Origin: an uncultured virus (IMG/VR IMGVR_UViG_3300044733_004038)
Taxonomy: Duplodnaviria; Heunggongvirae; Uroviricota; Caudoviricetes
Virus record (IMG/VR): IMGVR_UViG_3300044733_004038
Length of the DNA stretch: 64,000 bases
Strand: one strand, 5' to 3'
Positions 2,540 through 26,651 of this stretch are shown in pieces. A program made the translations under genes and the position numbers. A model generated the notes under the pieces. The model was not told the DNA's origin, did not search any database, and was given only the letters and a program-made list of their open reading frames with translations. Every line of letters starts with the position of its first letter. Position 1 is the stretch's first letter.

Positions 2540-3538
2540 CTAATCTAACCAAACTGTGTACTCAGCAGTCACTCTACCTTTGACTGGATCTATAAAATGC
2601 AGCCGCTGAGATGGTCGGCCAATCGCGCCGACTACTTCTCTTGCGTACTCGTTGTGAGACTCTGGCGAGCCAGAAATAAATACTCTTCCACCATTTGACA
2701 TAGTGAGTGTTGTTGGAGTGTGCCAATGACCCATGTATACGTCTTTGAACTCTTCAATTACACCAGTCGCCCAAGCATTTGCTTTTCTCATGATACTGCC
2801 AAATGATTTTGTCTCGTCACCATGAACTAGCAACGCTCTGTACGCACCTATTTGTACTATTTGATACCAGTCAGGAGACATTTGCCATGTGACGTTTTTT
2901 AGATCTTTTGTTCTGTCCATAGCTATTCTGTAAGAGATCGCGTCGATGTTGTCGTTGCCAGGCATTTCACCTTTGCGGCCGAGGCGGCCGTGGTTGCCGT
3001 ACTCGCAGACTACGTTTACTTTTTCAAAGAAGTCTGCAAACGTTCTGACCATTGTTTCTTCGATCTTGACTGTCTCAAATAGTTGCTCAAATAGATGAGC
3101 TTCAACTTCCCACGCTTGACCTGGAAATATCGTGATGCCTTCAACCATGTCTCCGCCAAACATAAGAGTACACTCACGCACTGGATGATGAGTGCGTTGA
3201 AGCGTAGTGAGCTCGAGAACTTTTTGAGTGAATTGCTCCATACGAGCACTGCACGTCTTAAGGCCGTAAGTAACCGTTTTCTTACCATTTTGCCAATCAG
3301 TGGCATGCACTAACGCAACTTCTGGCTTTATTTTTCTTGGATCTTTTGGCGGTACAGAGTGCGGCACTTTCTTGCCATTGCCGACGGCGAGTGCGGCATC
3401 TTTAGCTGCAACTAAGACTGCTTCTACTAAGTCATCTGCTTTTCGCTTTGCCTTGTACTCGGCTTGCTGCGCGCGCTTTAGCGCGGCTCTCAGCTCGGTG
3501 ACTTCGTCTTCTTTGCGAATATCGTCAGCGAGACTCAT
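2540..3538 (-). CDS. Calcineurin-like metallophosphoesterase (phage Mre11/SbcD-like)
   Basis: TDWQ, GGDMVEG, GNHG, HGD and GHWH motifs. Confidence 0.85.
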   Translation of the reverse strand: MSLADDIRKEDEVTELRAALKRAQQAEYKAKRKADDLVEAVLVAAKDAALAVGNGKKVPHSVPPKDPRKIKPEVALVHATDWQNGKKTVTYGLKTCSARMEQFTQKVLELTTLQRTHHPVRECTLMFGGDMVEGITIFPGQAWEVEAHLFEQLFETVKIEETMVRTFADFFEKVNVVCEYGNHGRLGRKGEMPGNDNIDAISYRIAMDRTKDLKNVTWQMSPDWYQIVQIGAYRALLVHGDETKSFGSIMRKANAWATGVIEEFKDVYMGHWHTPTTLTMSNGGRVFISGSPESHNEYAREVVGAIGRPSQRLHFIDPVKGRVTAEYTVWLD

Positions 3539-7625: not shown

Positions 7626-7978
7626 TAGTATGTCACTTCTGCCGCAACAGTAACTGTTCCTTTGACAAGTCGTGTAACGACGCCACCTGACGAAACTAAT
7701 TCAAGATCGTAAGTATATTTTGCTGGCACCAATGAAGCAGTTGAAGCAGCGCTAATCGCTATGTCAATTGTGCCAGCAGATCCGCCAAGAGTGATGCCGC
7801 CTCCCGCTGAGCTGGTAAGTGAAATTAGAGGCTCTCTGTCGCGACGATTGACGGCTCTAACTTTCATTCGTGCTGTGTATCCAGTGAGGTTGACTGCATT
7901 AGAGTCAATTTTCCACGTTAGCCGCTGCGAGTACGTAGTTCCTTGTTCAATAGTTAAATTAAGAATCCCTGCAGTCAT
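7625..7978 (-). CDS. Beta-sandwich tail-associated protein (BppU-N/LtfC-like)
   Basis: NLTIEQGTT...NLTGYTARMKVR...YTYDLEL...RLVKGTVTV pattern. Confidence 0.75.
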   Translation of the reverse strand: MTAGILNLTIEQGTTYSQRLTWKIDSNAVNLTGYTARMKVRAVNRRDREPLISLTSSAGGGITLGGSAGTIDIAISAASTASLVPAKYTYDLELVSSGGVVTRLVKGTVTVAAEVTY

Positions 7979-10906: not shown

Positions 10907-11704
10907 ATGCCAGAAGGACACTCAATAAGACACCTAGCGAACTTAAGTGATGCTGCCTTTAAAGGTAAAAAAATAACTGCAACAAGTCCACAAGGAAGAT
11001 TCGCTGCTGACGCCGCAGTTATTGATCAAAAACAAATGACAGGCGCTGGCGCTCATGGTAAACACTTGTTTCTTAAATTTGATGACGAACACGCGGTTCA
11101 TATTCATTTAGGTTTGTACGGTTGGCTGCACTTTAACAACGGAACTAAGGCAAAACCAAAAGACAGTGTTCGTCTTCGTCTTGAGGTTGATGACTTTTAC
11201 GCTGATTTGATAGCGCCAACGGCCTGCGCCTTACTAACCCCTAGTGAAGTAGAAAAGATACTTGATCGTCTTGGACCAGATCCGATACATCCACAAGCAA
11301 ATCCAGAACATGCTTGGAACAAGATTAAGAAAAGTTCTAAATCTATTGCTGCTCTTTTAATGGACCAATCAGTGATTGCTGGTATTGGAAATGTGTACCG
11401 TGCTGAACTATTGTTCAGATCAAATACTTCTCCGTTTATTCATGGCTCACAGATATCCAAAGAAAAATTTGAAAGTATCTGGAAAGATTCAGTTGAATTG
11501 TTAAAGCTTGGTTCTATTGATGGTAAGATACGTACTGTAAAACCCGAACATATAAGTGAAGAAGAGATTAAAGTACATGGTTGCTCGCAAAATAGTTATG
11601 TCTATAAACAAACAGGCGGACTTTGTCGAATTTGTAGCGACACTGTGAGGCAGGAAACTCACGCTGGAAGAGAATTATATTGGTGTCCAACGTGTCAGAA
11701 CTAG
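10907..11704 (+). CDS. nei: Fpg/Nei DNA glycosylase (endonuclease VIII-like)
   Basis: N-terminal PEG, GKHLF, HLGLYG, H2TH LMDQSVIAGIGNVY, C-terminal Cys4 zinc finger. Confidence 0.92.
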   Translation: MPEGHSIRHLANLSDAAFKGKKITATSPQGRFAADAAVIDQKQMTGAGAHGKHLFLKFDDEHAVHIHLGLYGWLHFNNGTKAKPKDSVRLRLEVDDFYADLIAPTACALLTPSEVEKILDRLGPDPIHPQANPEHAWNKIKKSSKSIAALLMDQSVIAGIGNVYRAELLFRSNTSPFIHGSQISKEKFESIWKDSVELLKLGSIDGKIRTVKPEHISEEEIKVHGCSQNSYVYKQTGGLCRICSDTVRQETHAGRELYWCPTCQN

Positions 11705-11922
11705 CGCAAGAAACACTTTCAACTTATGTTGACGGTGACCACGACCTTTTCGCACATTACGTAGACAAGGTTAAAGCGACAGAGGCGGCAATATTTGGAA
11801 CCCCAGTTGTCGCTTTATGTGGTAAAGTTTGGATTCCATCTCGTGATCCAGACAAATTTCCAGTATGCCAAGAATGCAAAAGCATATACGAAAAAATGTT
11901 CAATAACGAGAACAATAAGTAA
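11692..11922 (+). CDS. DUF3039 actinobacterial zinc-binding protein
   Basis: GDHDLFAHYV...GTPVVALCGKVWIPSRDPDKFPVCQEC. Confidence 0.88.
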   Translation: MSELAQETLSTYVDGDHDLFAHYVDKVKATEAAIFGTPVVALCGKVWIPSRDPDKFPVCQECKSIYEKMFNNENNK

Positions 11923-11959
11923 GCAATTTTCAACTTTTATATAGAAACGGCGGTATGTT

Positions 11960-14008
11960 GTGAGTATCTTTTCTTTTCGCATTAGTGATGAGTTTGTCGC
12001 TAGTTACAAAGAGAAAAAACCGCCGTTTGGATATCAAGATGCCGCGGGCAACTCTGTAGGTGAAATTACTTTTCTTCGGACGTATTCACGACTAAAAGAT
12101 GACGGCACAAAGGAAACGTGGCCTGAAGTATGCGAAAGAGTCATTAACGGAATGTACTCGCTTCAAAAAGATCACTGCAAATCAAACAGACTTCCATGGA
12201 ATGATACAAAAGCTCAAGCGAGTGCTAAAGAAGCTTTTGACCGTATGTACAACCTTAAGTGGACACCGCCAGGGCGCGGTCTGTGGGTCATGGGCACGCC
12301 GCTTGTCAATGTTCAGCGAAACTCTGCCGCGCTGCAGAACTGCGCTTTTGTTTCAACTATTGAAATGAGTAAAAACAATCCAGCCAAACCATTTGCATTC
12401 CTTATGGAAGCATCAATGCTTGGTGTTGGCGTTGGATTTGATGACAAGGGTGCCGACAAAGACTTTACTATCTACGAGCCTGGCGCGACTGAAACTCCAG
12501 TAGTAATTGAAATACCAGATACTCGTGAAGGCTGGGTTACGTCGGTGGCAACATTGTTGAACACTTATCTAAAATCTGATCAAAATGAAGCTGTATTTGA
12601 CTATAAGCTTGTTCGCCCAGCCGGCGCGCCAATTAAAACATTTGGTGGAACTGCGGCTGGCCATGAGCCATTGTTGAAACTACACTCTCATATTCGTCGT
12701 CTTTTCAACAATCGAGCTGGTGAAAAGCTTACAAGAAAAGATATTGCTGACATCGGCAACCTCATCGGTGTATGCGTAGTTTCTGGTAACGTTCGTCGTT
12801 CTGCTGAATTGTTGATTGGTCGCATTGATGACCAAGACTTCTTGAACTTAAAGAATGCTGAAGTATTTCCAGAGCGCAACTCGTATAACGCTGACTCACC
12901 GGGCTGGGGCTGGATGTCGAATAACTCAGTTGAAACAGCAGTTGGAACAGATCTGTCACCTATTGTTGAAGGTATCGCAAGGAACGGTGAGCCTGGCGTT
13001 ATTTGGATGGACGTTTCTCGTAAGTACGGGCGTCTTGCAGACCCAGTAAATAATAAAGATCATCGCGTTGCCGGGTACAATCCTTGCGCCGAGCAAAGTC
13101 TAGAGTCATACGAGTGTTGCACGCTTGTTGAGACATATCTAAACCGTCATGAGTCTTTAGAAGACTACAAGCGCACTCTTAAGTTTGCGTACCTTTACGC
13201 AAAAACAGTGACGTTACTACCAACTCACTGGGAAGAAACAAATGCGATTATGCAACGGAACCGTCGCATTGGAACGTCAATGTCGGGTGTTGCAAACTTT
13301 GCAGATATTCATGGCTTGCCAGTTCTTCGTGACTGGATGGACGCAGGATATGCGACGATTAAAGACTATGACAATACGTATTCTGAGTGGTTAGGAATTC
13401 GCGAGTCAATTAAAATGACCACTGTCAAGCCGTCAGGTACAGTTTCAATTCTTGCTGGAGAGTCTCCAGGCGTTCACTGGACGCCAGGAGGTAAGTACTT
13501 TAACCGTGCAATTCGTTTTTCAAACGACGATCCAATGTTGCCATTGTTCAAAATGGCTAACTATCGTGTTGAACCAGCAAGCGAGTCTCCAATGACTACT
13601 TCTGTTGTGTTCTTTCCAATTAAGTCTGAGGCTGAACGCGCTGAGCGTGACGTAACAATCTTTGAAAAGATGTCGCTTGCCGCTACCGCGCAACGGCATT
13701 GGTCAGATAACTCAGTCTCTGTGACAATTTCTTTTGATCCAGACACTGAAGCACGGCACATTGGCACAGTTCTTCACATGTATGACGGTCAGATGAAGAG
13801 CGTTTCGTTCTTGCCAAGTGGAAACTCCACGTATCCGCAGATGCCGTATACTCAGATCAGTGAAGAAGAGTACAACTCGAGCATGGGAAGTCTTTTTCCA
13901 ATTGATTTTTCAGGCGTCTATGGTGGTCTTGCCGCCGACGCTATTGGTGAAGCTTACTGCACGACGGACGCGTGTGAGATAAAGTTTATCAAAGACAATC
14001 AAAAATAA
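11960..14008 (+). CDS. nrdJ: Class II (adenosylcobalamin-dependent) ribonucleotide reductase, monomeric RTPR type
   Basis: RTYSR, PPGRGLW, NCAF, GNVRRSA, NPCAE, TTVKPSGTVS and C-terminal CTTDAC. Confidence 0.93.
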   Translation: MSIFSFRISDEFVASYKEKKPPFGYQDAAGNSVGEITFLRTYSRLKDDGTKETWPEVCERVINGMYSLQKDHCKSNRLPWNDTKAQASAKEAFDRMYNLKWTPPGRGLWVMGTPLVNVQRNSAALQNCAFVSTIEMSKNNPAKPFAFLMEASMLGVGVGFDDKGADKDFTIYEPGATETPVVIEIPDTREGWVTSVATLLNTYLKSDQNEAVFDYKLVRPAGAPIKTFGGTAAGHEPLLKLHSHIRRLFNNRAGEKLTRKDIADIGNLIGVCVVSGNVRRSAELLIGRIDDQDFLNLKNAEVFPERNSYNADSPGWGWMSNNSVETAVGTDLSPIVEGIARNGEPGVIWMDVSRKYGRLADPVNNKDHRVAGYNPCAEQSLESYECCTLVETYLNRHESLEDYKRTLKFAYLYAKTVTLLPTHWEETNAIMQRNRRIGTSMSGVANFADIHGLPVLRDWMDAGYATIKDYDNTYSEWLGIRESIKMTTVKPSGTVSILAGESPGVHWTPGGKYFNRAIRFSNDDPMLPLFKMANYRVEPASESPMTTSVVFFPIKSEAERAERDVTIFEKMSLAATAQRHWSDNSVSVTISFDPDTEARHIGTVLHMYDGQMKSVSFLPSGNSTYPQMPYTQISEEEYNSSMGSLFPIDFSGVYGGLAADAIGEAYCTTDACEIKFIKDNQK

Positions 14009-14068
14009 GTAATGTGACTATGTCTAGTTATGAACTAAAAAGAAAGCTAGGCACAAGACTACAGAACA

Positions 14069-14971
14069 ATGTCAATTGTAATTGGGTCGAGCTCTATGAC
14101 ATTGCAAAATGACATGTTTGCAAAAGATTTTTTTAAGCAAAATGTCCGTCTTATAGAAATTGAGCTGTTTTCCTTTTGCAACAGAACATGCTGGTTTTGT
14201 CCAAATTCAGAAATTGATAGACTTTCGCACAATGTTGTTCTTGAAGAAAGCACGTACTTAGACATAATTTCGCAGTTGGCGAAAGTAAACTATGACGGTG
14301 AGATTACGTATAGCAGATACAATGAGCCTTTGTCTAACAAAGACATAATCTTGTCTCGAATAAAAGCTGCTCGAGACATGCTTCCTTTAGCTAAACTGCG
14401 CACAAATACAAACGGAGACTATCTAGATAGAGAGTATATTTTTCAGCTTCGCGACGCTGGACTAAACGAACTATTTGTGCAGCAGTACCTTAGTAATAAT
14501 GAACTTTACGATCATAAAAAAATTTCGTCAAAATTGTTCAAAAAAGCTGTAGATCTTGGTTTTACGTACTCAATTGTTTCAGATATTCCTGGGCAAAGAA
14601 TTGAGGTAAATCTCAATACAGTTGGAATAACTACGCACATACGCGCTAGAAATTTTAGCAAAGAAGGCTCGGGTAGAACTAAATTTCTTAGCTCTATTGT
14701 GTCTAGTTCATATGTTCGAACAAAGTCTTGCAGTCAGCCGTTCAACAATATGTACGTTGACTACAACGGAAATGTCATGGTTTGCTGTAACACCCGCTCA
14801 GATATCAACAGTCACGCTGGCGGAATCATGGGCAACGTGTCAAAAAATAAACTATGGGAAATATTTATTTCTGATGCGTATGCTCCTTGGAGAAACATGC
14901 TTGGTCAAGACGGAATAAAAACTGGAATATGCGCGACGTGCAAGATAGGTCTTTCTACTAATGAGTTCTGA
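14069..14971 (+). CDS. Radical SAM protein with SPASM/twitch domain
   Basis: CNRTCWFC motif, NEPL, NTNGD; C-terminal C..PF...CC...C..C; start uncertain. Confidence 0.88.
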   Translation: MSIVIGSSSMTLQNDMFAKDFFKQNVRLIEIELFSFCNRTCWFCPNSEIDRLSHNVVLEESTYLDIISQLAKVNYDGEITYSRYNEPLSNKDIILSRIKAARDMLPLAKLRTNTNGDYLDREYIFQLRDAGLNELFVQQYLSNNELYDHKKISSKLFKKAVDLGFTYSIVSDIPGQRIEVNLNTVGITTHIRARNFSKEGSGRTKFLSSIVSSSYVRTKSCSQPFNNMYVDYNGNVMVCCNTRSDINSHAGGIMGNVSKNKLWEIFISDAYAPWRNMLGQDGIKTGICATCKIGLSTNEF

Positions 14972-15929
14972 AACTAAGTTTTCTGTAGACAGCATCACCG
15001 AACACCCAGTCGCTGGACGCATCTACACCGTCCAAGAACTCAATAATCTTACAATTACTAATAACGACTCAGAACCATTGATATTTCCTGGCGTCACATA
15101 CTTAGCGCTATCTGTTCCTCAGTACGGTCATATGTTGCACGACATCTACGCGCAATGGCGTATGATTCAAAGCATGTACGACGCGCAAATTGTTCTCACA
15201 AATTTATCTAATAAGGGAATGTATTATGGCAACGGCTGGCTACACAAGGTTATTGATGACTTCTTTGATTTAACAGGCTACAATAAAGACCACGTCATTG
15301 ATATCTCGCGCTACAACTACAAGTTCGAGCGTGTTGTTGCCATATTTGACATGTGTAACCTCACCCCGTATTTCCGCCACTACCTGCCGTTCTGTAGCTG
15401 CTACATGGGAACTGAGGCATGCGGGAGCAGTGAATGGTTCAAGTACAACCAGGATGCCGTGAAAATACTACGACAGGACCTTAGTCATTTGTTTCAACCG
15501 CCATCTAACAGTCGTATCTACATATCACGCAGCCGTTATAACGAAGAATATAAGCGACAGGCTGAGCGCGGTTTGAACTTAGAACGGGCACGACTTAGAT
15601 ACTTTGCTGACGAGCAAGCAGTCGAAGACCTCTTTGTAGCAAATGATTATAAAGTAGTGCATGCACAGGACTATGGTTTATACGAACAGGTCCGCGAGTT
15701 CAGCCAAGCAAGTCATGTTGCAAGCATCTCAGGAGCTGGTTTACTTAACTTAATGTGGTGCGATGCTCACACAACTGGTATAGAAATATGTGCGGTGCCA
15801 AGATACAAATGGCATTTTGACATTTTTGCACAGTACGCGAATGTCAGCAACTATAAAAAAGTAGACACTATTGGTTATGATATACAAATGACGCTAAAAA
15901 CCATTAGCTCTGCGCTACAAGATATATAG
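14961..15929 (+). CDS. Glycosyltransferase family 61-like
   Basis: QYGHML, IYISRS, EQVREFSQA and SGAGLLNLMW motifs. Confidence 0.8.
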   Translation: MSSETKFSVDSITEHPVAGRIYTVQELNNLTITNNDSEPLIFPGVTYLALSVPQYGHMLHDIYAQWRMIQSMYDAQIVLTNLSNKGMYYGNGWLHKVIDDFFDLTGYNKDHVIDISRYNYKFERVVAIFDMCNLTPYFRHYLPFCSCYMGTEACGSSEWFKYNQDAVKILRQDLSHLFQPPSNSRIYISRSRYNEEYKRQAERGLNLERARLRYFADEQAVEDLFVANDYKVVHAQDYGLYEQVREFSQASHVASISGAGLLNLMWCDAHTTGIEICAVPRYKWHFDIFAQYANVSNYKKVDTIGYDIQMTLKTISSALQDI

Positions 15930-16138
15930 CTAAGGCGCTACATAACCAAGGTTTCTTATAAAAATTAGCCTGTGCAGGCGCGGTGCGACTAGTTGCTGCA
16001 GGCTGCTAGATATCGTCCTGCTCACTTGCACTCAGTTCACTCATGGCGCATTGGACAGGGTTTAGCGCCTGTGAACTCGCAGGTCTAGAATACGGGATAG
16101 AATTTGCGGTAGGGAGAGACTTACGATATGGAAGTCTT

Positions 16139-16393
16139 ATGGAACAGATAAAGAACATATGCCTGAGGATTCTGGCAACTTTTGCTGCGTCAGGTCTTGG
16201 CGTTGTTGGAGCTGGCGCTATTGCAGGAATTCCTTTGTATAAAGCCATATTCATGGCTGGCATCGCTGGTGTAGCAACTGTGATTGAAGGGCTATCTCGC
16301 GCGTTTTTAGATGATGGAAAGCTCAGTTTAGCTGAAATCAATGATGTATTTAATAAAGTAGATCGCAAAAACTCTACAGAGAAAGCACAATAA
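16139..16393 (+). CDS. Holin-like membrane protein
   Basis: Two hydrophobic helices then DDGKLSLAEINDVF; start reassigned to ATG 16139. Confidence 0.6.
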   Translation: MEQIKNICLRILATFAASGLGVVGAGAIAGIPLYKAIFMAGIAGVATVIEGLSRAFLDDGKLSLAEINDVFNKVDRKNSTEKAQ

Positions 16394-16398
16394 ATTAC

Positions 16399-16551
16399 AT
16401 GCCAGTAGCTGAAGAAGCCGTTGTACACATTGATAAGGCCTTGGAACAACTAATAGGACGCAGTCTTTTGTCTTCTCTTGAGGTCTGTGACACTCTACTT
16501 GATCTTCGTCAGTTGATTACAGAATACGAAAACACTAGCCATGAAAACTAA
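16399..16551 (+). CDS. Small hypothetical protein (50 aa)
   Basis: MPVAEEAVVHIDKAL...DTLLDLRQL; fills the gap in the operon. Confidence 0.5.
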   Translation: MPVAEEAVVHIDKALEQLIGRSLLSSLEVCDTLLDLRQLITEYENTSHEN

Positions 16552-16741
16552 GTTGTTAGTTATCGCCGCGGGAATTGCGATAGCATCGTCCTGCGGCTAC
16601 GACGGTTCATATAGATACTCATGCCAAGATCCAAAAAACTGGGAAAGTAAGGAATGTGAGCCACCAATATGCGAAGTAGATGGAAACTGCACAAAAACAT
16701 TACTTGGATGGGATCCAACAGAGGAGACAATCGCGCCATGA
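16541..16741 (+). CDS. Cys-rich lipoprotein
   Basis: Lipobox IASSC; CQDPKNW...CEPPIC...C. Confidence 0.7.
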   Translation: MKTKLLVIAAGIAIASSCGYDGSYRYSCQDPKNWESKECEPPICEVDGNCTKTLLGWDPTEETIAP

Positions 16742-17025
16742 GACCACGACTGACACCAGCAGAGCTTGACGCACGACTTAAGTTTGTTATTGGTTGCGTG
16801 CTTGGTTTTGTTTTGACAATTACTACTATTGGCGTTCTTTGGGCTTTGGTATTTGTTACTCAGCCAATTGGCGCTCAAGCCGAAAACGACAAAATGTTTT
16901 TTGGAGTTCTGTCCTCAGTGGCTACTTTCATTACAGGAACACTTGCGGGTTTGATGATTTCAACAGGGCGCAATGCAGAAGACAAAAATGGCAATGGAAT
17001 TCCAGATCATCTTGAAGGCTCATAA
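16738..17025 (+). CDS. Two-TM membrane protein
   Basis: ATGA overlap with the lipoprotein stop; two TM helices; DKNGNGIPD tail. Confidence 0.7.
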   Translation: MRPRLTPAELDARLKFVIGCVLGFVLTITTIGVLWALVFVTQPIGAQAENDKMFFGVLSSVATFITGTLAGLMISTGRNAEDKNGNGIPDHLEGS

Positions 17026-17432
17026 TGTACGAGTACAGAATTAAACGAGTTCTTAAAGTCGTAGACGGAGACACTATAGATGTTGATATTGATCTTGGGT
17101 TTAATATTTCTTACTACCAGCGAGTCCGTCTTGCTGGCATTGATACACCAGAATCTCGCACTACGGACTTAGCCGAGAAGGCGCTTGGGATTGAGGTAAA
17201 AGATCGCGTCAAGCACCTCATTGACAACGCAAAAAAAATTGTCATCAAAACTGAAAAACCAGACAGTTCAGAAAAGTATGGACGCATTCTTGGCTGGTTG
17301 TATCTTGACGGAGCAGAAACTTCTGTCAACCACGCGCTGATTGCCGATGGCTACGCTTGGGAGTACATGGGTGATGCAAAAGTAAAAGACTATGGGGTCT
17401 TAGCAGCAAGACGCGCTGCAAGCAAAAAATAA
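17025..17432 (+). CDS. Thermonuclease (SNase family)
   Basis: VVDGDT, RVRLAGIDTPE and KYGRIL motifs. Confidence 0.9.
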   Translation: MYEYRIKRVLKVVDGDTIDVDIDLGFNISYYQRVRLAGIDTPESRTTDLAEKALGIEVKDRVKHLIDNAKKIVIKTEKPDSSEKYGRILGWLYLDGAETSVNHALIADGYAWEYMGDAKVKDYGVLAARRAASKK

Positions 17433-17538
17433 TGGAAAACAATTATTTTTACAACTTAGAAAGTGTAAATTCTTTTTACGATCCAGAAGACAGAGAATCG
17501 TACATCTATGACCCAGAACTAACAAGTAAGGCAGTTGA

Positions 17539-17787
17539 ATGCGTGTTTGGATAGATCAAGACTTATGTACTGGCGATGGACTGTGCGCAGAGGTGGCCCC
17601 GGATGTTTTCATCATGCTGGAGGATGGACTGGCCTACGTTCAAGAGAATGGCAAAGTATTTTCCAAGCTGCGGGGAAACGAAGAAGGCGCAAGCGGTTTA
17701 GCCTCTTTCGCAGAAGACCGCCTTGGTGATGTTGTTGAAGCTGCAGAAGACTGCCCTGGTGAATGTATTTTTATAGAAGTTGACTAA
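17539..17787 (+). CDS. Ferredoxin (single cluster, C-x2-D-x2-C...CP)
   Basis: LCTGDGLCAEVAPDVF...DCPGECI. Confidence 0.9.
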   Translation: MRVWIDQDLCTGDGLCAEVAPDVFIMLEDGLAYVQENGKVFSKLRGNEEGASGLASFAEDRLGDVVEAAEDCPGECIFIEVD

Positions 17788-17819
17788 ACAGCGTAGTTGG
17801 CAGTATATTTAACTACAAT

Positions 17820-18170
17820 ATGGGAAGCCACGTTGGCGAATCAATAGATAGAAAATACAAAAAAGCATTCGACAAAGACGTCGAGTGGATGACACACGCT
17901 GAGTGCAAAGGCATGACTCATCTGTTTTACGAGCCGCACAACGAGCAAGAAAGCGCGCGAATAAGGCGCGAAGAGTTGGCAAGAGCAATATGCAAAGTTT
18001 GCCCCGTCGCTATTGAATGTAAACAATTTGCTCGGAGAAACAGCGAATACGGCATCTGGGGAGATGAGTTAGAAATTGAAAGATGGCGAAAAGGGTACAT
18101 CGTCAACGACATTTCACTGAAACATAAACTACGCGGTTTTCACAGAACTTTACAAAGACAAACTAATTAG
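17820..18170 (+). CDS. whiB: WhiB family transcription factor
   Basis: W..AEC...ICKVCPVAIEC...GIWG. Confidence 0.88.
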   Translation: MGSHVGESIDRKYKKAFDKDVEWMTHAECKGMTHLFYEPHNEQESARIRREELARAICKVCPVAIECKQFARRNSEYGIWGDELEIERWRKGYIVNDISLKHKLRGFHRTLQRQTN

Positions 18171-18562
18171 TCTAAGCTATGGTACAAATTATGAACCGGC
18201 TTGTAATCTTTCGGTGCGTTTTCTCTGTTTAACGTTTTATATGTTCCTTTAGAGCTTTTCATTAACTCGCCGGGAAGCCCTGTTTCTTCGCATACTGATG
18301 TTGACATCGCTTCGTACTTTTCAATGATTTCGCTCATCATGTAGTACTTGCGCATGTCTTTTGAATTGTAGTAAAAGCGCAGTTCTCCAAATTTTTCTTT
18401 AATTTGAAAGATAGTATAGTCTGGGTCAATAAGAGCTAGCTGATAGTCTAAGTCCCAAATTAGTTGATACCAACCCTCTCCACAGAATATTTTTTTACCA
18501 TATTCTTTATGCATTCTGTCTATGACATGCGAAAGATCTATTCTGTAAGTTTCTGCGTTCAT
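18167..18562 (-). CDS. Conserved phage hypothetical protein (QIKEKFG-LRFY family)
   Basis: CGEGW, QIKEKFGELRFY and CEETGLPG motifs. Confidence 0.75.
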   Translation of the reverse strand: MNAETYRIDLSHVIDRMHKEYGKKIFCGEGWYQLIWDLDYQLALIDPDYTIFQIKEKFGELRFYYNSKDMRKYYMMSEIIEKYEAMSTSVCEETGLPGELMKSSKGTYKTLNRENAPKDYKPVHNLYHSLD

Positions 18563-19341
18563 TAAAACCTCTCTGTAGTAACAACACTGCCGCGTCTTTC
18601 AGACTCTGGCGGCAACTCTTCTCTGACGAGACAACGAAGAAGCCACCTGTCTGTTCCGTCATATCTTGGACTAAATGGCTTACGTCCGTGAATTGCTCTA
18701 CTGTTATTGATGATAAGAACATCGCCGGCTCTCAACGTAACTTCTTCAGTGTTACTTGCTATCACTTTATTTAGCTCGTCAAGCGCAGTTTGCGCCTTTG
18801 TATTAGTTCCTTGAACAAACGCTTGATCATGCGTTATCTGGTATCCATTTGACGTTTCTTCTAGTATAGACAGTTCTACTCGTTGGTCTTGTTCTCCATT
18901 TGTCCGAAAACTTGCATCAACTCTTGTAGTGTACTGCGTTTTAAGCAGCTCAGTTATTGATTGAGCGCTCAGCGATTTGACTAATGTCTTTACGTCAGCG
19001 TACGTTGTCGCCGCGTTTTTGTCGCCGCGAAGACACGCAAGAACTACGTAGTCTGGCTTATAAGGATGAAAAGCGGTTTCAGTGTGAAGTGCTAGATCTA
19101 CCTTAGATGACGTAGATATCTGTTCAGACTCAGTGCTTTTTATTGGAAACAAATGATGAATTAGTTTTCCATTTTGCTCTTGAGTATAGCCAATTGTATA
19201 ACCGTATGCAAGTGAAAGATTCAACAGTTCGGCGTATGCGTCTGGCAAACGGACTTGAGTTTCATGAGAAAGCGGAGTAGGCGGTATATCACCAAAGTAG
19301 CAACCACTTATACGTCTTACAGAAAAGTCCTTTAGCGCCAT
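18562..19341 (-). CDS. Fe(II)/2-oxoglutarate dioxygenase, TauD/clavaminate synthase (AsnO/VioC-like)
   Basis: LHTETAF, PDYVVLACLR, IHGR and DRWLLR motifs. Confidence 0.88.
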   Translation of the reverse strand: MALKDFSVRRISGCYFGDIPPTPLSHETQVRLPDAYAELLNLSLAYGYTIGYTQEQNGKLIHHLFPIKSTESEQISTSSKVDLALHTETAFHPYKPDYVVLACLRGDKNAATTYADVKTLVKSLSAQSITELLKTQYTTRVDASFRTNGEQDQRVELSILEETSNGYQITHDQAFVQGTNTKAQTALDELNKVIASNTEEVTLRAGDVLIINNSRAIHGRKPFSPRYDGTDRWLLRCLVREELPPESERRGSVVTTERF

Positions 19342-26477: not shown

Positions 26478-26564
26478 CGCGCAGTAGCATTAACGGTAGA
26501 GCAACCGCGTCCATGACCCCATGGTTGGGCGGTAGGTTTCTTGGTTCGAGTCCAAGACTGCGCA
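26478..26564 (+). ncRNA. tRNA-like RNA with expanded (20-nt, hairpin-containing) anticodon loop
   Basis: Acceptor GCGCAG/CTGCGC, GGTAGAGC D region, ACCGC/GCGGT stem, CTTGG-TTCGAGT-CCAAG T-arm; no encoded CCA. Confidence 0.65.
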
Positions 26565-26576
26565 CAAAAAACACAC

Positions 26577-26651
26577 GCCCTTGTAGCTCAGTGGTAGAGC
26601 AACCGCCTTGTAAGCGGTAGGTCGTCAGTTCAATCCTGACCGAGGGCTCCA
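26577..26651 (+). tRNA. tRNA-Thr(TGT)
   Basis: Full cloverleaf GCCCTTG/CGAGGGC, anticodon loop CTTGTAA, TTCAATC T-loop, encoded CCA. Confidence 0.95.

What the first reader, a model, noticed from the sequence alone, without database searches (positions are those of the whole stretch)
26478..26651. tRNA-like gene with a hairpin in place of the anticodon loop, tandem to tRNA-Thr
Seen: acceptor stem, T-arm and GGTAGAGC are intact. The anticodon stem ACCGC/GCGGT and its flanks (GGTAGAGCAACCGC...GCGGTAGGT) are identical to the neighbouring tRNA-Thr(TGT). The 7-nt loop is replaced by 20 nt that fold into a perfect CCATG-ACCC-CATGG hairpin. The acceptor and T stems differ from tRNA-Thr yet remain fully paired, which argues against simple decay. 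Inference: a decoy for anticodon nucleases or other tRNA-binding defence proteins, an intron-containing tRNA, or a non-translational aminoacyl carrier.
Basis: partly seen in the sequence, partly recalled or inferred. Interest (0 to 1): 0.72.

Follow-up and report, generated by a model that had tools for sequence, protein, structure and literature searches.

The report
Selected anticodon-less tRNA mimic in phage
A lake phage carries, next to its only real tRNA gene, a tRNA-shaped gene whose codon-reading loop is sealed by a hairpin that related phages preserve, so it is a maintained look-alike that likely cannot translate and may act as a decoy for host enzymes that attack tRNAs.

Summary
The 86-nt gene (26479-26564) keeps acceptor, D and T arms and the anticodon stem of the neighbouring tRNA-Thr(UGU), but a 20-nt capped hairpin replaces the anticodon loop. 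Four orthologous metagenome loci decide against decay. Three are identical over 86 nt while four-fold sites differ at 32 of 142. One has six changes: a compensatory pair in the inner hairpin, a compensatory 15-48 tertiary pair, and two loop positions. An intron reading fails: every 13-nt excision leaves a non-canonical loop, the window copy has no bulge-helix-bulge, and no splicing enzyme was found among 142 phage proteins. It is best read as a selected, non-decoding tRNA mimic, built like phage T5 RNA1/RNA2 but compact, possibly with an unusual 6+6 acceptor/T-stem fold. A decoy role is my best guess (about 0.4). Expression and function are untested, and in a published case a phage tRNA needed its anticodon to protect. 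This scan has noted the same class in other phages before.

The parts
26479..26564 (+). tRNA-shaped gene with sealed, elongated anticodon arm (86 nt, discriminator A at 26564, no encoded CCA)
26479..26485 (+). acceptor 5' strand: six pairs with 26558-26563; T26485 is either U8 (6+6 fold) or a seventh pair with A26557 (7+5 fold)
26487..26502 (+). D arm: four pairs with a bulged A at 26489; position 15 (26493) covaries with position 48 (26538)
26504..26533 (+). elongated anticodon arm: 5-bp Thr(UGU)-type stem, 2x4 internal loop, 5-bp inner hairpin, 4-nt cap
26511..26524 (+). inner hairpin; pair 26513/26522 is A-U here and G-C in ortholog L264
26534..26557 (+). short variable loop and T arm (5 or 6 bp, canonical T loop)
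26565..26576 (+). 12-nt spacer, poorly conserved (4 of 12 and 6 of 10 aligned sites differ in orthologs)
26577..26651 (+). canonical tRNA-Thr(UGU) with encoded CCA, the only canonical tRNA of the 131.6-kb genome
26216..26473 (+). 85-aa ORF of unknown function that marks the tRNA slot in related phages (context, not part of the RNA)

Best explanation
It is a tRNA-shaped gene kept by selection whose anticodon loop is replaced by a capped hairpin, so its RNA is predicted not to decode, and it likely acts as an uncleavable look-alike of tRNA-Thr(UGU) that ties up a host tRNA-attacking enzyme. Shown: the cloverleaf scaffold, the Thr-type stem, conservation far above neutral, and two compensatory changes. 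Inferred: co-transcription with tRNA-Thr, maturation by host RNase P and 3' trimming with CCA addition, stability, and no decoding, since the arm is about seven pairs too long and has no anticodon loop. Speculative: that the bound partner is an anticodon nuclease or acceptor-end toxin. I put about 0.88 on 'selected non-decoding RNA' and about 0.4 on the whole statement with the decoy role.
For: Orthologs: 4 of 23 loci of the metagenome scan. L271, L276 and L277 show 0 of 86 differences; for L277 four-fold sites differ at 32 of 142 (binomial P 3e-10) and the 20-nt loop at 0 of 20 (P 0.006). L264 shows 6 of 86 (four-fold 28 of 142; P 9e-4), keeps 27 of 27 pairs, two of them by changes on both sides. 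Six random substitutions leave all stems intact with a compensatory pair in 0.6% of simulations, and with the 15-48 switch as well in 5e-6; counting only the three changes that do not resemble tRNA-Thr gives 0.5%. A-U and G-C are the two common 15-48 pairs (22 and 43 of 78 canonical tRNAs). The stem is a Thr(UGU) signature, and the genome has only these two tRNA-shaped genes. tRNA-Thr(UGU) is a prime target of the PARIS nuclease AriB (PMC12409363, passages), and tRNA-Thr and tRNA-Gly of the toxin FaRel2 (10.1101/2024.07.05.602228, passages). tRNAs with a replaced anticodon stem-loop are processed and stable in E. coli (PMC3401473, passages).
Against: No expression data: the one RNA run laid does not cover the gene, and all four runs were contigs. 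Only two distinct versions of the gene exist in my data; the shuffle control of the pair count is not significant (108 of 500), and the 15/16/48 changes could come from gene conversion with tRNA-Thr. The gene is dispensable in the wider family: absent from the slot in 33 of 35 loci, and L012 has an identical tRNA-Thr without it. In the retron-Eco7 case, changing the phage tRNA's anticodon abolished protection, which points to replacement rather than decoy (PMC11555353, passages). The AriB motif next to the cut site (U36-A-A-U) is absent from the element, and it has 3 of the 4 FaRel2 acceptor determinants (lacks G4-C69). The host and its defence systems are unknown.
Confidence: 0.4

Rival explanations
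1. A natural tRNA scaffold: the tRNA body only makes the RNA stable, and the business end is the capped hairpin and internal loop, which bind a host or phage protein unrelated to tRNA defence.
For: Loop nucleotides are unchanged in all orthologs; the only two changes in the 20 nt are one compensatory pair. Engineered scaffolds work this way (PMC3401473, passages). Look-alikes in other phages carry unrelated hairpins.
Against: Does not explain why the outer stem stays identical to tRNA-Thr(UGU). No partner is known. No other 10-nt or longer match of the loop on either strand of the genome, so no antisense target in the phage.
Confidence: 0.22
2. A processing or leader element (t-element-like): the fold marks RNase P and 3' cuts that release or stabilise tRNA-Thr and end the upstream mRNA.
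For: Sits between an ORF stop (26473) and tRNA-Thr; a weak -10-like hexamer lies just upstream (4 sites found against 2.3 +/- 1.8 in shuffles, so not above chance). The t-element precedent PMC1920247 was seen only as a search listing.
Against: tRNA-Thr is its own processing signal, and relatives place it directly behind the ORF. Shape alone would not require an invariant loop sequence.
Confidence: 0.15
3. A pre-tRNA with a 13-nt intron, giving tRNA-Asn(GUU), Lys(CUU) or Arg(CCU).
For: Lak megaphage tRNAs have unexplained introns (PMC6784885, passages).
Against: All 8 possible excisions leave G38; 7 of 8 leave G32 and the eighth G33. Among 467 canonical tRNAs G32 occurs in 9, G38 in 14, and G37 after U36 in 4 of 281. 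Cuts that give Trp here give Arg in L264. No bulge-helix-bulge in the window arm; the one hit in L264 would break the anticodon stem. No splicing endonuclease or RNA ligase family among 142 proteins scanned. The same relaxed ARAGORN run made 158 calls in the genome.
Confidence: 0.05
4. A decaying duplicate of tRNA-Thr with a chance insertion.
For: Bulged D stem, no CCA, patchy presence; D-stem pairs have low predicted probability (0.24 or less).
Against: 0 of 86 differences against an expected 19; the spacer right beside it differs at 6 of 10; two compensatory changes.
Confidence: 0.05
5. A charged, non-translating aminoacyl carrier.
For: Intact 12-bp acceptor branch; some irregular tRNAs are charged but do not translate (PMC5389517, section 16).
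Against: No anticodon, A73 rather than the U73 of the neighbouring tRNA-Thr, no G3-U70, no long variable arm (sequence; identity rules recalled). No aminoacyl-transferase family among 142 proteins.
Confidence: 0.08
6. A DNA-level signal, for example near a physical genome end.
For: Contig depth doubles just behind tRNA-Thr in 3 of 3 DNA runs.
Against: The 15-48 covariation is an RNA tertiary feature; no integrase family found.
Confidence: 0.05

Closest known systems
Phage T5 RNA1 and RNA2 (NC_005859, annotated 'tRNA-like stable RNA with unknown functions')
   Same: tRNA acceptor, D and T arms with the anticodon loop replaced by internal loop plus capped hairpin; in a phage tRNA cluster.
   Different: T5 RNAs are annotated as 144 and 125 nt with a variable arm; this one is 86 nt with a short variable loop and a Thr(UGU) stem. 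My model scores them only partly and weakly (10.6 and 17.9 bits), so shared descent is not shown.
Phage T4 rnaC and rnaD (species 1 and 2 RNA, NC_000866)
   Same: Small stable RNAs of a tRNA cluster; rnaC folds with a T-arm-like hairpin and long helices.
   Different: 139 and 119 nt; no clear D arm in the predicted folds.
Canonical tRNA-Thr(UGU) (Rfam RF00005)
   Same: D loop, anticodon stem and variable loop; in L264 also positions 15, 16 and 48.
   Different: No anticodon loop, different acceptor and T stems, A73, no encoded CCA.
allo-tRNAs and irregular tRNAs (PMC5389517)
   Same: 12-bp acceptor branch possibly split other than 7+5; some are thought not to translate.
   Different: Described splits are 8/4 and 9/3; here 6+6 or 7+5. 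They keep an anticodon loop. The paper's supplements, which show further irregular forms, were not seen.
Lak megaphage tRNA 'introns' (PMC6784885)
   Same: Conserved insertions in phage tRNA genes, one in a tRNA-Thr(TGT).
   Different: There an alignment with intron-less copies defines a removable insert; here no excision gives a canonical loop. Supplementary Table 6 was not seen.
Engineered tRNA-scaffold RNAs (Ponchon and Dardel approach, as described in PMC3401473)
   Same: Structured RNA placed on the anticodon stem of an otherwise normal tRNA.
   Different: Artificial; gives a precedent for processing and stability only.

Membership tests
Canonical elongator tRNA (RF00005) | 7-nt anticodon loop with U33 | tested here: not met
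   20-nt loop closed by a hairpin
Canonical elongator tRNA (RF00005) | 12-bp acceptor plus T branch, G18-G19, canonical T loop, 15-48 pair | tested here: met
Canonical elongator tRNA (RF00005) | Rfam gathering score 29 | tested here: not met
   28.8 bits, borderline; absent from the gathering search
Protein-spliced intron pre-tRNA (archaeal/eukaryal type) | bulge-helix-bulge at the splice sites | tested here: not met
   none in the window arm; one incompatible hit in L264
Protein-spliced intron pre-tRNA (archaeal/eukaryal type) | canonical anticodon loop after excision | tested here: not met
   8 of 8 excisions leave G38 and G32 or G33
Protein-spliced intron pre-tRNA (archaeal/eukaryal type) | endonuclease and ligase available | tested here: inconclusive
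   none among 142 phage ORFs, mostly 70 aa or longer; host unknown
Group I intron in tRNA | ribozyme core of some hundreds of nt | tested here: not met
   13 extra nt; no intron family among Rfam matches
T5 RNA1/RNA2-type tRNA-like stable RNAs | tRNA scaffold with elongated, capped anticodon arm in a phage tRNA locus | tested here: met
T5 RNA1/RNA2-type tRNA-like stable RNAs | accumulates as a stable processed RNA | not testable with these tools
   the RNA run laid does not cover it; contigs only
T5 RNA1/RNA2-type tRNA-like stable RNAs | variable arm, 125-144 nt, sequence kinship | tested here: not met
   86 nt, short variable loop; weak partial model scores
allo-tRNA (8/4, 9/3) | acceptor stem of 8 or 9 bp | tested here: not met
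   6 or 7 bp; 26478 varies
YrlA Y RNA (RF02553) | family score at or above 69 | tested here: not met
   21.9 bits, spanning halves of both genes
tRNA pseudogene | neutral divergence with stem-breaking changes | tested here: not met
Anti-defence phage tRNA (PARIS, retron-Eco7 type) | protects by replacing the cut tRNA in translation | tested here: not met
   no anticodon; anticodon needed in PMC11555353. The neighbouring tRNA-Thr could fill this role; not tested

The most novel reading that the evidence does not exclude
An RNA-only anti-defence inhibitor: a purpose-built, anticodon-sealed copy of tRNA-Thr(UGU) with an undescribed 6+6 acceptor/T-stem fold, made together with the real tRNA to soak up the host's tRNA nucleases or toxins. 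It would be a minimal, testable member of a widespread class of phage tRNA mimics whose job has been open since T4 and T5 were mapped.
Probability: 0.25. Interest if true: 0.85.

Novelty: new variant of a known kind. Interest (0 to 1): 0.57.

Why it matters
Phage tRNA-like RNAs without an anticodon (T5 RNA1/RNA2, T4 rnaC/rnaD) are annotated as of unknown function, and standard tRNA finders miss them. This case shows by natural variation that the sealing hairpin and the tRNA tertiary core are both under selection, so such genes are not debris. With 86 nt, a known natural variant and a matching real tRNA next door, it is an easy substrate for asking whether phages use decoy RNAs against tRNA-targeting immunity. 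The anti-defence phage tRNAs in the papers I read are taken to work by replacing the lost tRNA. A 6+6 acceptor branch would also add to the 7/5, 8/4 and 9/3 folds listed in PMC5389517.

Tried and rejected
Relatives cannot be drawn for a virus record. blastn against 50,697 phage records gave only short T-arm matches, E 0.3 or worse, none covering 80%. The bulged-D-arm pattern gave 60 loci, 2 of them identical copies of the element and no new ortholog. The six-pair pattern in GTDB genomes gave 3 loci, none tRNA-shaped. Because that scan selected for this T arm, the Asn top hits say nothing on ancestry. The RNA run X24 (share 0.10) does not cover the gene: no evidence either way. One search used a mis-registered structure and is replaced. 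The promoter scan is not above chance. Whether the fold is 6+6 or 7+5 is unresolved: energies favour 7+5 by 0.6 kcal/mol (pair probability 0.77 against 0.16), while U8, A9 and the 15-48 covariation fit 6+6. An att-site reading was dropped: the gene is whole and no integrase family was found. A codon-display idea (a Thr codon in the 4-nt cap) was dropped as untestable here. PMC13692257 (passages) has no bearing. PMC10264068 (passages) gives only general background and does not mention decoys or Thr.

Full report
Setting. The window is the first 64 kb of a 131,575-nt virus record with terminal repeats, rated complete. WhiB, endolysin and terminase genes and lake-water runs that hold the stretch (23 of 24 rows flagged as a possible source) point to a phage of freshwater Actinobacteria. 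The host is inferred, not shown. A model of tRNA-like genes finds two matches in the genome: tRNA-Thr(UGU) at 26577 and the element at 26479-26564.

Observation. Default ARAGORN and Rfam at gathering score report only tRNA-Thr; with laxer filters the element scores 28.8 bits against the tRNA model with a 20-nt loop. It folds at z -2.64. The outer stem of the arm is found in 5 of 32 distinct Thr(UGU) genes and 0 of 435 other tRNAs in my loci, so the core was most likely copied from tRNA-Thr(UGU) (inference). The D stem has a bulged A, and CCA is not encoded.

Orthologs. In viral contigs the Thr-stem pattern gave 3 loci: two identical copies and one unrelated tRNA-Thr with an 11-nt insert. Three lake DNA runs show the gene on one contig with no other letters. 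The single metagenome scan gave 23 loci, of which 4 are orthologs in the same gene order. L271, L276 and L277 are identical over 86 nt. For L277 the flanking ORFs differ at 35 of 420 and 32 of 258 sites, four-fold sites at 32 of 142 and the spacer at 6 of 10; tRNA-Thr itself differs at 0 of 73. L264 has six changes: 26513 and 26522 turn an A-U pair of the inner hairpin into G-C; 26493 and 26538 turn the 15-48 pair from A-U into G-C; 26494 and 26550 are D-loop and T-loop positions. All 27 pairs are kept. The simulation gives 0.6% for intact stems plus a compensatory pair, and 0.5% if the three Thr-like changes are set aside as possible gene conversion. With two distinct rows the tool's own shuffle control is not significant (108 of 500), so the case rests on the comparison with neutral sites and on the simulation. 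Recombination could homogenise a short stretch, but both immediate flanks differ.

Fold. A26557 can pair with T26485 (7+5) or T26539 (6+6). Nearest-neighbour energies prefer 7+5 by 0.6 kcal/mol. The 6+6 form keeps U8 and A9 and puts the covarying base at position 48, where A-U and G-C are the usual partners (65 of 78). I rate 6+6 slightly more likely, about 0.55. Unambiguous 6+6 scaffolds occur in L214 and in a five-locus repeat family with long arms. A search for 6-bp acceptor and T stems in print listed two unrelated papers.

Not an intron. All eight 13-nt excisions leave G38 and G32 or G33; those that give Trp here give Arg in L264. Of 46 canonical Asn, Lys(CUU) and Arg(CCU) loops in my loci none has G32. 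No bulge-helix-bulge lies in the window arm. No splicing endonuclease, RNA ligase, synthetase or integrase family was found among 142 proteins (small ORFs were mostly not scanned).

Distribution. Of 42 loci found with the downstream 319-aa protein and 35 found with the 85-aa family, only the two identical records carry the element; the slot otherwise holds canonical Thr(UGU), Ile(UAU), Arg(UCU) or Pro(UGG), or nothing. I searched the whole records behind 50 of these loci, 49 of them held, and fetched 14 regions with long or weak matches. No ortholog appeared, but G025 has an unrelated tRNA scaffold with an expanded loop (L314, 196-276) and G014 a branched form without a clear D arm (L297, 1760-1843). 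A generic pattern in viral contigs gave 57 loci, 38 distinct. I picked 17 by eye as long-arm forms; 16 of them have at least 6 of 7 acceptor pairs and 5 of 5 T pairs, and 5 encode CCA. Nine more lie among the 23 metagenome loci, several inside tRNA arrays. The design therefore recurs with unrelated sequences.

Mechanism. Shown: scaffold, Thr-type stem, selection on the hairpin and on the tertiary core. Inferred from established tRNA biology: a shared precursor with tRNA-Thr, host processing and CCA addition, and no decoding. Engineered RNAs of this build are processed and stable (PMC3401473, passages). My preferred function is a decoy for a tRNA-Thr-directed host enzyme, because the stem stays identical to the one tRNA that the family keeps most often, and tRNA-Thr(UGU) is a documented target (PMC12409363 and 10.1101/2024.07.05.602228, passages). 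Against this, the known recognition motifs are only partly present, and a tested anti-retron phage tRNA needed its anticodon (PMC11555353, passages). Scaffold for a hairpin ligand and processing signal are the main rivals.

Known relatives and print. T5 RNA1 and RNA2 are annotated as tRNA-like stable RNAs of unknown function and fold with the same kind of elongated arm, plus a variable arm; T4 rnaC and rnaD are looser parallels. I took this lead from an earlier finding of the scan and checked it here. Searches listed no paper whose title or abstract start describes compact anticodon-sealed phage tRNAs or a tRNA decoy. I saw listings only for most hits, the library lacks most subscription journals and old T4/T5 work, and I did not see the supplements of PMC5389517 (passages and section 16 read) or PMC6784885 (passages read). 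The scan itself has noted this class on at least nine other genomes; a look-up by sequence found no look-alike of this gene.

Verdict. Real, selected and non-decoding with high confidence; function unproven. A new variant of a known but unexplained kind. Interest 0.57.

Noticed in passing
window 26623 onward: Contig depth behind tRNA-Thr is about twice that before it in 3 of 3 DNA runs (157/77, 33/16, 148/65), with no second strain seen upstream. This may be the start of a long terminal repeat, or a second phage sharing the downstream 9 kb.
   Followed up: no
L041 about 7696-7779, L042 about 3299-3382, L046 about 3248-3331: A tRNA-like gene in related phages with a UAU anticodon hairpin placed where the D arm should be, followed by a long linker and a normal T arm.
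   Followed up: partly
L260, L262, L273, L279, L281: A dispersed repeat in one metagenome assembly: tRNA scaffold with six-pair acceptor and six-pair T stem, long arms of varying sequence, and flanking inverted repeats.
   Followed up: partly
L214 486-568 (minus): tRNA-Ile(GAU)-like gene with a clear six-plus-six acceptor branch in an AT-rich phage.
   Followed up: partly
L265, L272, L275 (about 685-765): A conserved long-arm tRNA look-alike in tRNA arrays with varying outer stems and a constant inner part; further capped forms in L261, L263/L278, L268/L282 and L269.
   Followed up: no
L314 196-276 and L297 1760-1843: Two more non-canonical tRNA scaffolds in related phages, sharing a similar acceptor stem.
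   Followed up: partly
L294, L297, L304, L306: Related phages encode tmRNA just before tRNA-Asn(GUU); default ARAGORN found none in the window.
   Followed up: no
L217 488-572: A long-arm look-alike directly behind what looks by eye like a tmRNA 3' end; ARAGORN made no call there.
   Followed up: no
L002/L248, L206, L230, L231: tRNA genes with 11-15 extra nt after an intact anticodon, probably eukaryote-type introns of giant viruses (the virus group is my guess).
   Followed up: no
window 10907-19341: Fpg glycosylase, class II ribonucleotide reductase, radical SAM, glycosyltransferase 61, ferredoxin, WhiB and TauD-like genes in one block.
   Followed up: no
tRNA slot of related phages: The tRNAs kept in the slot all read A-ending codons (Thr ACA, Ile AUA, Arg AGA, Pro CCA); ACA is 1063 of 2997 Thr codons in this genome's called ORFs.
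   Followed up: no
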